In this document: in pieces, positions 7,381 through 9,251 of the stretch | Layout: each line of letters begins with the position of its first letter | Position numbering within the stretch: the first letter of the stretch is position 1 | Origin: Longivirga aurantiaca | GTDB taxonomy: Bacteria > Actinomycetota > Actinomycetes > S36-B12 > CAIYMF01 | Direction: 5' to 3' | Length of the DNA stretch: 32,000 bases | Assembly: GCF_042660085.1 (NCBI RefSeq) | Contig: NZ_JBHSTI010000002.1 | Span: forward strand, 240,001-272,000 | The notes under the pieces: model-generated | What the model saw: only the letters and a program-made list of their open reading frames with translations | What the model was told of the DNA's origin: nothing | Databases searched by the model: none | Translations under genes and position numbers: made by a program

Positions 7381-8082
7381 CTAGGGGAGGGTGAGGGTGG
7401 AGCCGGCGGGGTGCTCGACGCGCTTGCCGTGGCCGAGGACCCAGACCGACTGCCGGCCCTGAACGGTCCACTCGTGCGGTCCGCCGACGAGCGCGGTGTC
7501 CTCGTCGATGCCGAGCAGTGTCACGCCGTCCGGCAGGCCGAGCAGCGCGTTGCGCAGCATGTCGGGCACCCAGGCAGCCATCTTGTCGAAGTGCGGGATC
7601 ACGCGGACGTGCGGCACGAGGCCGAGGCCCGTCGGCTGCTCGGCGCGCATCGAGCGCATCCGCGGAGCCCAGCCCGAGAGCGCCATCGCGCCGGCGCTGC
7701 ACCCAGCGATCGCCGCACCCGCCTCGTGGGCGCGCACGATCGCGTGCCACACAGCCGTCTGGCGCAGGGTCTCGGCAAGGTACGCCGGGTTGCCGCCCGA
7801 GAGGTAGATGAGGCCGGCGCCCTCGAGGAGCGCCGCCAGGGACGCGTCCTCGGCGTCCTCGCGGGTGCGGACGTCGACGACGACCTGCTCGACGCCGAGC
7901 CGCTCGGCCTGCGCCCGTCCGAGGCTGTGCCAGCGCGCGAGCGACGCGTCGCCCTCGGGCGCGGCCGCGGTGGCGAGCTGCACGTACTTCGGTGCGCGGC
8001 CCGCGATGAGCGCGCCCTCGATGTCGGTCATGACGGGCAGGTACTCGCCCGAACCGACCAGTGCGATCGGTGCCGTGCTCAT
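7381..8082 (-). CDS. Peptidase S51 / cyanophycinase-like (class I glutamine amidotransferase-like fold) protein
   Basis: A 233-aa product starting MSTAPIALVGSGEYLP. S51-type motifs are present: GSGE near the N-terminus, LIYLSGGNPAYL, the nucleophile-elbow-like IAGCSAGAMA and VIPHFD. Its ATG overlaps the upstream gene's stop (ATGA). The upstream 282 aa of the track ORF are Arg-rich shadow sequence. Confidence 0.75.
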   Translation of the reverse strand: MSTAPIALVGSGEYLPVMTDIEGALIAGRAPKYVQLATAAAPEGDASLARWHSLGRAQAERLGVEQVVVDVRTREDAEDASLAALLEGAGLIYLSGGNPAYLAETLRQTAVWHAIVRAHEAGAAIAGCSAGAMALSGWAPRMRSMRAEQPTGLGLVPHVRVIPHFDKMAAWVPDMLRNALLGLPDGVTLLGIDEDTALVGGPHEWTVQGRQSVWVLGHGKRVEHPAGSTLTLP

Positions 8083-9251
8083 CGGCGTACCTCCCACTCG
8101 ACGCCGTCGGCGGTGTCGCGCACCTCCACGCCCGCCCCGGCCAGACCGTCGCGGATCGCGTCGCTGTCGGCCCAGCGCTTCTCGGCCCGAGCCGACGTGC
8201 GGAGCGTCAGGAGCACCTCGACCAGGGGCCGCACGGTCTCCGTGACGTCGACGGGCTCGCCCACGGCAGCGGCGGTACGTGCCAGCAGCGACCGCACCAC
8301 GCTGCGCTCGTCGTCGCTCGTCGCCATCCGGTCGAGCTCGCCGACCAGGGCGATCGCGCGGGCCACGTCGCCGTCCGAGAGCGCCGCCTCGACCGTGGAC
8401 GCGTCGAGGGCGTCGGCAGCCGGAGCAGCCACGGCGACCGGTGACGGGGCGCCGGAACCTGCGCCGTGCGAGGCGATCTCGTCGATCGTCGTGGTGTCTC
8501 CGGCGTTGAGGACCCACTCGTCGCCGTGCACGCGCACGACCACCGTTCCCTTGCCCACGACCTCGCAGACCCGCGAGTCGAGGTCGATCACGAGGCCGGT
8601 GTGCTCGTCGACTCCGAGCACGAACGCATCGTCCGGCAGCTGCGCCTCGAGCGCGACGAGGCGACGCTCGCCGAGCCAGCAGAAGCGGGTGTCGTGCGTG
8701 CCGCCCTCCGCGTTGTTCCAGTGCGGTACGACGGCCGCGCGCAGACCGGTGGCACGGCCCACGACGTCGAGCCCGTCGAGCCAGCGCGGCGTCTCGCCGA
8801 CCTTGTAGATCTCGTAGACCGGGATCGTGAGCAGCCCGAGCGTGAGGGCCGCCGCGCTCGCGAACGTGACGGCGCCGCCCTCGGCGAGCCGTGCGTGCAA
8901 AGCATCCGGCACCGCGCTGCCCGCCCACGTGCGCAGCGCGTACGACGGCGAGCCCGGGCCGGCGAAGATCCAGTCGGCAGCGCGGAGCCTCGCCATCTCC
9001 TCGGCGTGCTGCACGGGGTCCGGAGCGGGTGCCGAGCGGAAGCTGACCGCCTCGACCGTGCGGCCGACGCTCTCGCGGAAGTACTGCTGGGCCTTCTCGG
9101 TGAGCTCGTCGGCGTTCTCCTGGAAGCCGTACGGCGAGTCGAGGAGGACGGCACGGACGTCGGTGCCGAGCCTGGCGAAGGTCTTCTGATGCGGGGTGAC
9201 CATCGTCGGGCTGGTCTCGCCCGAGCCGAGGATCGTCAGGACACGGGTCAC
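8079..9251 (-). CDS. S51/cyanophycinase-like paralogue fused to a C-terminal CysRS-like helical domain; function unknown
   Basis: GTG start (VTRVLTILGSGETSPT). The N-terminal ~255 aa are paralogous to the downstream gene (GSGE, WIFAGPGSPSYAL, FASAAALT, VVPHWNN). The C-terminal ~130 aa (aa 261-390) end in RAEKRWADSDAIRDGLAGAGVEVRDTADGVEWEVRR. That closely mirrors the extreme C-terminus of class I cysteinyl-tRNA synthetases (recalled E. coli CysRS: [36 protein letters not shown]). An alternative in-frame GTG lies at 9269. Confidence 0.7.
   Translation of the reverse strand: MTRVLTILGSGETSPTMVTPHQKTFARLGTDVRAVLLDSPYGFQENADELTEKAQQYFRESVGRTVEAVSFRSAPAPDPVQHAEEMARLRAADWIFAGPGSPSYALRTWAGSAVPDALHARLAEGGAVTFASAAALTLGLLTIPVYEIYKVGETPRWLDGLDVVGRATGLRAAVVPHWNNAEGGTHDTRFCWLGERRLVALEAQLPDDAFVLGVDEHTGLVIDLDSRVCEVVGKGTVVVRVHGDEWVLNAGDTTTIDEIASHGAGSGAPSPVAVAAPAADALDASTVEAALSDGDVARAIALVGELDRMATSDDERSVVRSLLARTAAAVGEPVDVTETVRPLVEVLLTLRTSARAEKRWADSDAIRDGLAGAGVEVRDTADGVEWEVRR

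What the first reader, a model, noticed from the sequence alone, without database searches (positions are those of the whole stretch)
7381..9251. A translationally coupled pair of divergent S51/cyanophycinase-like paralogues, the first fused to a CysRS-like C-terminal domain
Two adjacent minus-strand genes overlap by ATGA. Both show S51-type landmarks: GSGE near the N-terminus, a GG/PG-x-P-x-Y-L segment, a Ser-Ala nucleophile-like motif (CSAGA versus ASAAA) and PH(F/W). They are therefore paralogues and probably form a hetero-oligomer. The upstream protein carries about 130 extra C-terminal residues (nt 8082..8471). This tail (VEAALSDGDVARAIALVGELDR ... LLTLRTSARAEKRWADSDAIRDGLAGAGVEVRDTADGVEWEVRR) parallels the C-terminal helical region and extreme C-terminus of class I cysteinyl-tRNA synthetases. 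There is no cyanophycin synthetase nearby, so the usual S51 context is missing. Fusing a peptidase or amidotransferase-like fold to a tRNA-synthetase-derived module suggests an uncharacterised activity, possibly on an aminoacyl, peptidyl or nucleic-acid-linked substrate. That last step is pure inference.
Basis: partly seen in the sequence, partly recalled or inferred. Interest (0 to 1): 0.65.

Follow-up and report, generated by a model that had tools for sequence, protein, structure and literature searches.

The report
Hydrolase fused to tRNA-Cys reader
Two overlapping genes encode related peptidase-type serine hydrolases, and the first is joined to a copy of the module that cysteinyl-tRNA synthetase uses to read the tRNA-Cys anticodon; this design is widespread and unstudied, and may mark an enzyme that works on, or senses, one specific tRNA.

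Summary
Gene A (8079-9251, minus, 390 aa) and gene B (7381-8082, minus, 233 aa) overlap by ATGA, and both have strong coding statistics.

- **Gene B** is a conventional S51 protein. It is an orthologue of the unpublished PDB entry 6NQC, from an acI actinobacterium.
- **Gene A, N-terminal domain** is a divergent S51-fold hydrolase. Ser132 and His177 are invariant across the family.
- **Gene A, tail** is homologous to the whole anticodon-binding end of CysRS: it scores above the Pfam CysS_C cut-off, and a tail profile matches PDB CysRS chains at E 5e-12.

The fusion is a large family: 592 clusters at 50% identity and at least 598 species in four or more phyla. I found no paper on it. This scan has already flagged the same family on at least 15 other genomes.

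The A-B pairing is confined to the window's own order. Elsewhere gene A usually follows an alpha/beta hydrolase (57 of 80 loci).

This genome has a complete MshA-D set and no cyanophycin synthetase. Gene A is therefore neither a replacement for MshC nor part of cyanophycin metabolism.

My best reading, unproven, is a tRNA-Cys-directed hydrolase or acyl-transferase. A hetero-oligomer with B was not tested.

The parts
8079..9251 (-). Gene A: 390-aa fusion protein, made of an S51-fold hydrolase domain, a disordered linker and a CysRS-type anticodon-binding tail. An alternative GTG start lies at 9269.
   Evidence: ORF and translation. GC3 0.92. AF2 model mean pLDDT 90.5. At least 7,999 database relatives.
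8466..9251 (-). A N-terminal domain (residues 1-262) with the S51 / class I amidotransferase-like fold. Candidate catalytic residues are Ser132 (8856-8858), His177 (8721-8723) and Glu216 (8604-8606). A family-specific invariant loop, N180..G183..H186-D187-T188, follows the catalytic His.
   Evidence: Foldseek top hits are 6nqc (E 1.7e-13, TM 0.80), PepE and cyanophycinase. The N-domain profile matches 6nqc at E 3e-8. Invariant residues come from 76 sequences. Coordinates were checked.
8403..8465 (-). Low-complexity Ala/Pro/Gly linker (residues about 263-283).
   Evidence: pLDDT is below 50 for residues 267-279. Linker length varies from 16 to 55 aa across the family.
8223..8402 (-). Helical part of the tail (residues 284-343). 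It corresponds to the CysRS helical anticodon-binding bundle and is about 30 residues shorter here than in most family members.
   Evidence: The tail profile aligns to CysRS 8qhp residues 364-486 and E. coli 1li5 residues 336-459. The deletion relative to long-tail members is visible in the alignment. Helices 284-292, 296-309 and 313-329 are predicted.
8082..8222 (-). CysS_C-type terminal domain (residues 344-390). R351, R355, D364, R367 and W386 are invariant, D379 is nearly so, and all six are identical to the residues at the same positions in CysRS.
   Evidence: Pfam PF23493 29.3 bits against a cut-off of 23. phmmer to CysRS 3tqo residues 417-460. hhalign against the genome's own CysRS residues 370-470, probability 97.5%, E 7.7e-12. 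Residue conservation.
8079..8082 (-). ATGA stop/start overlap between A and B (translational coupling).
   Evidence: Sequence read directly. The same abutting arrangement occurs in 8 related loci and in every genus genome that carries both genes.
7381..8082 (-). Gene B: 233-aa stand-alone S51-family protein, orthologue of PDB 6NQC. Its triad candidates are Ser129 (7696-7698), His164 (7591-7593) and Glu194 (7501-7503).
   Evidence: Pfam PF03575 55.8 bits against a cut-off of 23.9. 6nqc at E 1.9e-52. TIGR02069 cyanophycinase 65.6 bits, below its cut-off of 126.6. Coordinates.
9332..10042 (-). TetR-family regulator gene, co-directional and 80 nt upstream of A. It is a conserved neighbour in close relatives, and a regulatory link is possible but not shown.
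   Evidence: Pfam TetR_N plus TetR_C_33. The same gene order, TetR then A then B, occurs in L031, L032 and L034.

Best explanation
**What is shown.** Gene A belongs to a large, uncharacterised family. In it, an S51-fold serine hydrolase domain is permanently joined, through a flexible linker of 16-55 residues, to a copy of the CysRS anticodon-binding region (helical bundle plus the terminal alpha/beta CysS_C domain). The hydrolase domain has an invariant Ser132 in an S-A-A-A elbow and an invariant His177. The acidic partner is either Glu216 or the invariant Asp215.

**What is inferred.** The tail most likely docks the protein on the GCA anticodon of tRNA-Cys. The hydrolase domain would then act on whatever is esterified at the 3' end of that tRNA. 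It could remove it (a free-standing, tRNA-specific deacylase or editing factor), or pass the acyl group from a Ser132 acyl-enzyme to another acceptor.

**Gene B.** B is a separate, conventional S51 hydrolase of the 6NQC type. In this order only, it is translationally coupled to A and co-inherited with it. It probably acts in the same pathway, for example on the released product or as a partner subunit. In most other lineages an alpha/beta hydrolase occupies the coupled position instead.

The architecture, the homologies and the distribution are shown. tRNA binding, the substrate and any A-B contact are inferred.
For: **Tail is a CysRS anticodon-binding module**
- Pfam CysS_C above its cut-off.
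- The tail profile matches five PDB CysRS sequences at E 4.9e-12 to 3.9e-4. For 8qhp and 1li5 the alignment spans about 120 residues, covering both the helical bundle and the terminal domain.
- hhalign against the genome's own CysRS gives probability 97.5%.
- The tail-only AF2 model (pLDDT 89.8) has the CysRS-tRNACys complex 1u0b as its top Foldseek hit, probability 0.99.
- R351, R355, D364, R367 and W386 are invariant in 76 sequences from several phyla, and D379 is present in 75 of 76. All six are the same residues as in CysRS. That points to a retained function, not just a retained fold.
- The anticodon GCA is one of the strongest identity elements of tRNA-Cys (PMC9976931).

**Hydrolase domain looks active**
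- Ser132, His177 and about 45 other N-domain positions are invariant.
- The fold matches S51 enzymes at Foldseek E 1e-13 to 1e-10.

**The fusion is the rule**
- Of 118 representatives at 50% identity or less that carry this N-domain, 92 hit CysS_C. The only other family that recurs is Peptidase_S51 itself, which matches the N-domain in 39.
- The genome holds only two CysS_C domains: the one in cysS and the one in A.

**Geometry is plausible**
- The linker is disordered and of variable length. It could span the distance from anticodon to acceptor end; this is inference.

**Lead from an earlier scan note**
- Note e1-860644 reports full CysRS proteins fused to this hydrolase type. I did not verify this here.
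Against: - There is no direct evidence of RNA binding.
- Structural similarity of the tail alone is statistically weak: Foldseek E 0.029, TM 0.36.
- In this lineage the helical part of the tail carries a deletion of about 30 residues.
- The position of the canonical S51 catalytic Glu is Ser or Gly in 17 of 76 family members, all from Chloroflexota. The chemistry may therefore differ from S51 peptidases.
- The conserved neighbours are other hydrolases (B, or an alpha/beta hydrolase), not translation genes. cysS lies 60 kb away and the single tRNA-Cys gene is on another contig.
- As far as I know, CysRS has no editing problem that would call for such a factor.
Confidence: 0.4

Rival explanations
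1. A and B are ordinary cytoplasmic peptidases or amidases acting on a small peptide or amide. The CysRS-derived tail has been recruited for something other than tRNA binding, such as oligomerisation, protein docking or stability.
For: - Both proteins have the S51 fold.
- The coupled partners are hydrolases: B here, and an alpha/beta hydrolase of the Abhydrolase_1/6 and S33-like type in 57 of 80 loci.
- No translation-related gene is a conserved neighbour.
- The helical part of the tail tolerates a 30-residue deletion in this lineage.
Against: - The residues that stay invariant in the tail across phyla are exactly those shared with CysRS.
- The fusion is kept in 92 of 118 diverse representatives.
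- A mere docking helix would not need the complete helical-plus-alpha/beta module.
Confidence: 0.25
2. The tail does bind tRNA-Cys, but as a sensor. The charging state or abundance of tRNA-Cys would switch the hydrolase domain, and its partner B, on or off, linking peptide or amide breakdown to cysteine supply.
For: The evidence on the tail is the same as for the best explanation. The partner genes are hydrolases, which fits a catabolic output.
Against: - No precedent known to me uses an aaRS anticodon domain in this way on a peptidase.
- Nothing in the neighbourhood points to cysteine or sulfur metabolism.
- A flexible linker of very variable length is a poor allosteric coupler.
Confidence: 0.12
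3. A takes part in mycothiol-type thiol metabolism. It might move cysteine from Cys-tRNA-Cys onto the glucosaminyl-inositol core in place of, or beside, MshC. This idea was raised in earlier notes of this scan.
For: - In a 301-genome sample of the phylum, 22 of the 23 other A-bearing genomes have an MshD-like gene, against 58 of 277 genomes without A.
- Five A-bearing genomes have an MshD-like gene but only one CysRS-level hit and no MshC.
- mshD lies 20 kb from the pair in this window.
Against: - This genome has MshA, MshB, MshC and MshD all above their curated cut-offs, so there is nothing to replace.
- A is more frequent in MshD+ MshC+ genomes (15 of 26) than in MshD+ MshC- genomes (7 of 31).
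- Only 1 of 6 A-bearing genomes outside Actinomycetota has even a sub-threshold MshD-like hit.
- No msh gene is a recurrent neighbour in 80 loci.
- The association within the phylum may simply reflect shared ancestry.
Confidence: 0.07
4. The pair degrades cyanophycin or its beta-Asp-Arg dipeptides. This has been assumed for the 'cyanophycinase' of freshwater acI actinobacteria.
For: - JGI names the family 'cyanophycinase-like exopeptidase'.
- There are weak TIGR02069 matches: B 65.6 bits, A 32.5 bits.
- Papers on acI infer cyanophycin use from such a gene (PMC3526179, PMC5574706).
Against: - Both scores are far below the TIGR02069 cut-off of 126.6.
- No cyanophycin synthetase is present: the best hit scores 89.8 bits against a cut-off of 850.
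- Neither protein has an N-terminal extension that could be a signal peptide. The first beta-strand and the GSGE motif start at residues 3-12, so polymer from lysed cyanobacteria would be out of reach.
- The Arg-rich specificity pocket after the catalytic His of cyanophycinase, as I recall it from the published structure, is not present in the aligned region of B.
- This reading gives no role to a CysRS tail.
Confidence: 0.04

Closest known systems
Peptidase family S51 (PepE aspartyl dipeptidase; cyanophycinase CphB/CphE; PDB 6NQC 'peptidase from an acI-B1 Actinobacterium')
   Same: Same fold for both A (N-domain) and B. The nucleophile-elbow Ser and the following His sit at equivalent positions, and the acidic residue lies in an xDE(D/H)T strand. 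B is a 6NQC orthologue at E 1.9e-52.
   Different: - A's N-domain is not recognised by Pfam PF03575.
- A carries a family-specific invariant loop after the catalytic His (N180, G183, H186-D187-T188, C191, R197).
- The position equivalent to the catalytic Glu is variable across the family.
- A is fused to an aaRS-derived module.
- Neither protein reaches the cyanophycinase or PepE equivalog cut-offs.
- 6NQC itself has no published function.
Cysteinyl-tRNA synthetase (CysRS), C-terminal anticodon-binding region (E. coli residues about 336-461; Pfam CysS_C PF23493)
   Same: Homologous over the helical bundle and the terminal alpha/beta domain. The conserved Arg, Arg, Asp, Arg, Asp and Trp residues are identical.
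   Different: No Rossmann catalytic core, no HIGH or KMSKS motifs and no zinc site: only the last 110-140 residues are present. The helical part is shortened in this lineage, and the module is attached to a hydrolase rather than a ligase.
Free-standing aminoacyl-tRNA trans-editing deacylases (YbaK, ProXp-ala, AlaX), cited from general knowledge
   Same: If the best explanation is right, the logic is the same: a hydrolase outside the synthetase that clears or processes an aminoacyl-tRNA.
   Different: The catalytic fold is unrelated. As I recall, those factors do not carry a synthetase anticodon-binding domain of their own. No activity has been shown for A.
MccF-type S66 serine peptidases that cleave aminoacyl-nucleotide antibiotics (from general knowledge)
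   Same: They share the Ser-His-Glu chemistry. As I recall, they also share the amidotransferase-like fold and act on an amino acid linked to an adenosine moiety, which would make the proposed chemistry for A less far-fetched.
   Different: A different peptidase family, with no tRNA-binding module. The resemblance is by analogy only and was not tested here.
MshC (mycothiol cysteine ligase, a CysRS paralogue)
   Same: It also derives from CysRS and occurs in the same genome.
   Different: MshC keeps the catalytic core of CysRS, whereas A keeps only the opposite end. Consistently, only cysS and A hit CysS_C in this genome, so MshC does not. A and MshC co-exist here.

Membership tests
Peptidase family S51 (gene B) | Match to the family HMM above the curated cut-off | tested here: met
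   PF03575 55.8 bits against a cut-off of 23.9. 6nqc at E 1.9e-52 and cyanophycinase 7uqv at E 5.6e-12.
Peptidase family S51 (gene B) | Ser-His-Glu catalytic residues in register | tested here: met
   Ser129 (GCSAGA), His164 (IPHF) and Glu194 (GIDEDT) align with the same motifs in 6nqc and 7uqv.
Peptidase family S51 (gene A, N-domain) | Match to the family HMM above the curated cut-off | tested here: not met
   No PF03575 hit for P0001 at E up to 1. Across the family, 39 of 118 diverse members do hit PF03575 at E up to 0.01.
Peptidase family S51 (gene A, N-domain) | S51 three-dimensional fold | tested here: met
   AF2 model pLDDT 90.5. Foldseek gives 6nqc at E 1.7e-13 (TM 0.80), and PepE and cyanophycinase at E 1e-11 to 1e-10.
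Peptidase family S51 (gene A, N-domain) | Ser-His-Glu triad conserved | tested here: inconclusive
   Ser132 and His177 are invariant in 76 of 76 sequences. Glu216 is present in this protein, but the same position is E in 59, S in 11 and G in 6 of the 76. Asp215 and His217 are invariant.
Cyanophycinase (TIGR02069 equivalog) | Score above the equivalog cut-off (126.6 bits) | tested here: not met
   B scores 65.6 bits and A 32.5 bits. The genome-wide best is 63.9 bits.
Cyanophycinase (TIGR02069 equivalog) | Cyanophycin context (cphA in the genome, or a secreted enzyme) | tested here: not met
   The best cphA-model hit scores 89.8 bits against a cut-off of 850. Neither protein has an N-terminal extension.
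CysRS C-terminal anticodon-binding region (gene A tail) | CysS_C domain HMM above the cut-off | tested here: met
   PF23493 29.3 bits against a cut-off of 23, residues 344-386. In the genome-wide search it scores 33.9 bits.
CysRS C-terminal anticodon-binding region (gene A tail) | Homology extends into the helical bundle that precedes CysS_C | tested here: met
   The tail profile aligns to 8qhp residues 364-486 (E 1.6e-11) and 1li5 residues 336-459 (E 4.7e-10). In this protein the helical part is shortened.
CysRS C-terminal anticodon-binding region (gene A tail) | Structural superposition on CysRS | tested here: inconclusive
   The tail-only model has 1u0b_B as its top hit with probability 0.99, but E is 0.029, TM 0.36 and rmsd 13.6.
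CysRS C-terminal anticodon-binding region (gene A tail) | Binds the GCA anticodon of tRNA-Cys | not testable with these tools
   Only residue conservation speaks to this: R351, R355, D364, R367, D379 and W386 are the same residues as in CysRS.
Cysteinyl-tRNA synthetase (whole enzyme) | Class I Rossmann catalytic core | tested here: not met
   TIGR00435 and NF011108 match only residues 328-387 of A, at 18-19 bits against cut-offs of 340 and 780. The N-terminal 262 residues have the S51 fold.
A-B hetero-oligomer | Physical contact between the two proteins | not testable with these tools
   Only indirect support: the conserved ATGA overlap, and co-occurrence within the order of 28 genomes with both, 9 with neither and 3 discordant. 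No multimer prediction was available.

The most novel reading that the evidence does not exclude
Family A would be a previously unrecognised class of tRNA-directed enzyme. A peptidase-fold serine hydrolase carries its own synthetase-derived anticodon reader and uses Ser132 to take the acyl group off (mis)acylated tRNA-Cys. It would then either hydrolyse that group, acting as a dedicated proofreading or clearing factor for tRNA-Cys, or transfer the cysteinyl group to a non-ribosomal acceptor. B, or the alpha/beta hydrolase found in other lineages, would act as the second-step enzyme.
Probability: 0.25. Interest if true: 0.85.

Novelty: new variant of a known kind. Interest (0 to 1): 0.6.

Why it matters
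If the tail really reads the tRNA-Cys anticodon, this would be a hydrolase or transferase that borrows a synthetase's tRNA-recognition module. That would be a new route to tRNA specificity outside the synthetases themselves.

The family is abundant. It occurs in environmental Actinomycetota (including relatives of the dominant freshwater acI/Nanopelagicales), Acidimicrobiia, Chloroflexota, Rokubacteria/Methylomirabilota and Dormibacteraeota.

The result also corrects an annotation habit. Genes of this kind are called 'cyanophycinase', and they have been used to infer cyanophycin scavenging by freshwater actinobacteria. The evidence here does not support that reading for this genome.

Finally, the case is directly testable with a few in vitro assays.

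Tried and rejected
1. **Cyanophycin metabolism: rejected.** No cphA, sub-threshold cyanophycinase scores and no export signal.
2. **A as a stand-in for a missing MshC: rejected for this genome.** MshA-D are all present. The idea is also not supported by distribution.
3. **The A-B pair as the conserved unit: rejected.** B is adjacent only in the window's order.
4. **A recent A/B duplication: rejected.** The two share only 27% identity.
5. **Unusual tRNA-Cys complement: nothing found.** ARAGORN reports one tRNA-Cys(GCA).
6. **Conserved neighbours other than the alpha/beta hydrolase: no consistent theme.** I found a ZnuABC-type transporter, a GFO/IDH/MocA oxidoreductase, a luciferase-like monooxygenase, a beta-lactamase-fold protein, an MFS transporter and DUF2017. 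All look like lineage-level synteny.
7. **Promoter and terminator scan between TetR, A, B and the MFS gene: nothing on the minus strand**.
8. **Literature searches: no hits.** I searched for the fusion, for 6NQC, and for S51 together with tRNA synthetase.
11. **Model coordinates were not available to scripts.** Triad geometry and the distance from the active site to the tail were therefore not measured.
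Full report
**The observation**

The window is high-GC (about 72%) actinobacterial DNA. On the minus strand, an ORF at 8079-9251 (GTG start, 390 aa, protein P0001, 'A') is followed by an ORF at 7381-8082 (ATG start, 233 aa, P0002, 'B'). 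The stop of A and the start of B share ATGA at 8079-8082. GC3 is 0.92 for A and 0.94 for B, with GC2 near 0.52, which is the signature of real genes in this genome. An alternative in-frame GTG at 9269 would add six residues to A, and several database homologues are annotated that way.

BLASTP of A against B gives 27% identity over 256 columns, E 2e-5. A profile of the A N-domain against B gives hhalign probability 97.7%, E 2e-12.

**What gene B is**

B matches Pfam Peptidase_S51 at 55.8 bits, against a cut-off of 23.9. It is a clear orthologue of PDB 6NQC (E 1.9e-52), whose title is 'peptidase from an acI-B1 Actinobacterium'. I found no paper citing that entry. Ser129, His164 and Glu194 sit in the canonical S51 motifs. 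B scores 65.6 bits on the cyanophycinase equivalog TIGR02069, whose cut-off is 126.6, so by that standard it is not a cyanophycinase.

**What gene A is: the N-terminal domain**

Pfam's S51 model does not recognise A's first 262 residues. However, an AlphaFold2 model built on 76 family sequences is confident (mean pLDDT 90.5). Its best PDB matches are 6nqc (E 1.7e-13, TM 0.80), then PepE and cyanophycinases at E 1e-11 to 1e-10. By sequence profile, the only solved relative is 6nqc, at E 3e-8.

Across 76 sequences from several phyla, Ser132 (in an invariant S-A-A-A), His177 and about 45 other N-domain positions never change. These include a family-specific loop after the catalytic His, carrying N180, G183, H186-D187-T188 and R197, with C191 in 75 of 76.

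The position equivalent to the S51 catalytic Glu is Glu216 in this protein. In the family it is E in 59, S in 11 and G in 6 of the 76 sequences. All the non-E cases are Chloroflexota MAGs. The flanking Asp215 and His217 are invariant. The domain therefore looks like an active serine hydrolase, but its chemistry may not be a plain copy of S51.

**What gene A is: the tail**

- Residues 344-386 score 29.3 bits on Pfam CysS_C, 'cysteinyl-tRNA ligase anticodon binding domain', against a cut-off of 23.
- phmmer aligns them to the last 44 residues of CysRS structures.
- A profile of 63 family tails matches five PDB CysRS sequences at E 4.9e-12 to 3.9e-4. For 8qhp (residues 364-486) and E. coli 1li5 (residues 336-459) the alignment covers the helical bundle as well as the terminal domain.
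- hhalign against this genome's own CysRS gives probability 97.5%, E 7.7e-12, over CysRS residues 370-470.
- A tail-only AF2 model (pLDDT 89.8; five helices and a beta-hairpin) has the CysRS-tRNACys complex 1u0b as its top Foldseek hit with probability 0.99, but only E 0.029 and TM 0.36. The sequence-profile tests carry the case.
- R351, R355, D364, R367 and W386 are invariant, and D379 is present in 75 of 76 sequences. All six are the same residues as in CysRS.
- Residues 267-279 are disordered in the model. The linker varies from 16 to 55 residues in the family.
- Compared with most members, this lineage lacks about 30 residues of the helical part.
- The genome contains only two CysS_C domains: cysS, 60 kb away, and A.

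**How widespread it is**

- A word-indexed search returned 7,999 relatives among 8,000 scored candidates. The top 120 are 65-95% identical, and nearly all carry PF23493. They are named 'cyanophycinase-like exopeptidase' or 'hypothetical protein'.
The carriers include MAGs labelled Nanopelagicales, Acidimicrobiia, Ilumatobacteraceae, Chloroflexia, Limnocylindrales, Rokuibacteriota, Methylomirabilota and Dormibacteraeota, and the cultured Rugosimonospora africana.
- An exhaustive HMMER search with the N-domain profile finds 592 clusters at 50% identity with E of 1e-30 or better.
- Of 118 such representatives long enough to judge, 92 hit CysS_C. The only other family that recurs is Peptidase_S51 itself, matching the N-domain in 39. 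The fusion is the family's normal state.
- In an even sample of 301 genomes of the phylum, 24 carry it.

**The pair is not the conserved unit**

- In close relatives (72-90% identity) the order TetR, A, B with overlapping A and B is kept.
- Among 80 loci from across the family, only 8 have B next to A, and these are the closest relatives.
- None of 23 carriers from other classes has B adjacent. Of the five of those genomes searched in full, four have only 29-34% identical S51 paralogues elsewhere and one has none.
- In the window's own genus and order, A and B travel together. Both are present in 28 of 41 genomes: abutting in all 22 genus genomes that have them and in three same-order genomes, and unlinked in three more. 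Neither is present in 9. Three genomes are discordant, two of them incomplete.
- In 57 of 80 loci, a gene for an alpha/beta hydrolase (Abhydrolase_1/6, S33-like, no specific NCBIfam assignment) ends within a few bases of A's start on the same strand. This includes Rugosimonospora and one genome of the window's own order.
- This genome keeps a 42-47% identical homologue of that hydrolase elsewhere.
- Other recurrent neighbours look like lineage synteny: a ZnuABC-type transporter, GFO/IDH/MocA, a luciferase-like monooxygenase, a beta-lactamase-fold protein, MFS and DUF2017.

**Tests of specific functional ideas**

*Cyanophycin.* There is no cphA (best hit 89.8 bits against a cut-off of 850) and no cyanophycinase above threshold in the genome. 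Neither protein has an N-terminal extension for export. The assumption in the acI literature that such genes degrade cyanobacterial cyanophycin (PMC3526179; PMC5574706 notes that the gene is otherwise annotated hypothetical) is not supported for this locus.

*Mycothiol.* Earlier notes of this scan suggested that A supplies cysteine from tRNA where MshC is missing.
- This genome has MshA (630 bits), MshB (378), MshC (634.5) and MshD (305, in the window at 29538-30494), all above their cut-offs.
- In the 301-genome sample, 22 of the 23 other carriers have an MshD-like gene, against 58 of 277 non-carriers.
- Carriers make up 15 of 26 MshD+ MshC(-like)+ genomes but only 7 of 31 MshD+ MshC- genomes.
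- Five carriers do lack any MshC while having an MshD-like gene.
- Outside Actinomycetota only 1 of 6 carriers has even a sub-threshold MshD-like hit.

I read this as co-distribution within the phylum, not as a functional dependence.

*tRNA complement.* There is one tRNA-Cys(GCA), which is unremarkable.

**Most likely mechanism**

The shown facts are these: a conserved, apparently active serine-hydrolase domain; a flexible tether; and a complete CysRS anticodon-binding module that keeps the residues CysRS keeps. The anticodon is a principal identity element of tRNA-Cys (PMC9976931).

The simplest reading is that the tail places the hydrolase on tRNA-Cys. Ser132 then attacks the ester at the 3' end, giving either hydrolysis (a tRNA-Cys-specific clearing or editing factor) or transfer to another acceptor. 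B here, or the alpha/beta hydrolase elsewhere, would handle a subsequent step or act as a subunit. I put this at about 0.4.

The main rival, at 0.25, is that the tail has lost tRNA binding and the proteins are ordinary intracellular peptidases or amidases. A tRNA-sensing regulatory role (0.12), a mycothiol-linked role (0.07) and cyanophycin use (0.04) follow.

No tool here can test RNA binding or A-B contact.

**Comparison, novelty and earlier notes**

The nearest known entities are S51 peptidases for the N-domain and for B, and CysRS for the tail. A fails membership of CysRS as an enzyme because it has no catalytic core. It is an S51 member by fold but not by Pfam score, and it has a variable 'Glu' position. 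I found no publication on the fusion.

This scan has reported the same family on at least 15 other genomes, with the same general reading.
- The B partnership is restricted to one clade.
- An alpha/beta hydrolase is the usual coupled partner.
- The canonical Glu position is variable.
- Genome-level tests weigh against the MshC-replacement and cyanophycin ideas.

I class it as a new variant of known kinds (an S51 hydrolase plus an aaRS anticodon module) with an untested, potentially novel function.

Noticed in passing
window 21196-31998: A run of minus-strand genes: pstB, a pst permease and pstS-like genes (21196-25473), a NUDIX plus histidine-phosphatase fusion (25403-26560), polyphosphate kinase (27332-29455), mshD (29514-30527; TIGR03448 305 bits) and a GlnR-type regulator (30577-31998). 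Earlier notes on related genomes place the S51 pair directly beside mshD and ppk; here it lies 20 kb away.
   Followed up: partly
window 14670-16268 (-): A 533-aa ORF with good coding statistics but no Pfam match at E up to 0.001. The homologous 497-aa gene in L031 also has no Pfam hit.
   Followed up: no
L060:6877-8001 and 56 other loci (for example L073:7048-7983): An alpha/beta hydrolase gene ends at or within a few bases of the start of the fusion gene in 57 of 80 loci across phyla. This looks like the ancestral coupled partner. The window's genome keeps a homologue elsewhere (G000:C8:1271530-1272360), beside a GFO/IDH/MocA oxidoreductase and a GCS2-type carboxylate-amine ligase.
   Followed up: partly
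family alignment A2, column of residue 216 of gene A (window 8604-8606): The position equivalent to the S51 catalytic Glu is Ser or Gly in all 17 Chloroflexota-labelled members, while the neighbouring Asp215 and His217 are invariant. The catalytic acid of this family may therefore not be the canonical one.
   Followed up: partly
L074, L091, L101 and others (downstream of the fusion gene): A ZnuA/ZnuB/ZnuC-type metal ABC transporter lies convergent just downstream of the fusion gene in 21-33 of 80 loci. The fusion's N-domain has several invariant or near-invariant His, Asp and Cys residues (H186, D187, C191, D215, H217). A metal link was not examined.
   Followed up: no
phylum sample: Many genomes of other classes carry an MshC-like ligase scoring 360-432 bits, below the 485-bit cut-off, and covering model positions about 14-385. 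One family (f17) has MshD above its cut-off in 8 of 8 genomes but an MshC-like hit at E of 1e-100 or better in only 1 of 8.
   Followed up: no
G000:C8:1957092-1957173 and C8:802349-802441: ARAGORN reports a tRNA-like gene with an irregular two-base anticodon call ('gt'), and a tRNA-SeC(TCA), in the window's genome.
   Followed up: no
window 9252-9331: The 80-nt gap between the TetR stop and the GTG of gene A has no promoter-like or terminator-like site by the simple scan, so A and B may be co-transcribed with the TetR gene.
   Followed up: no
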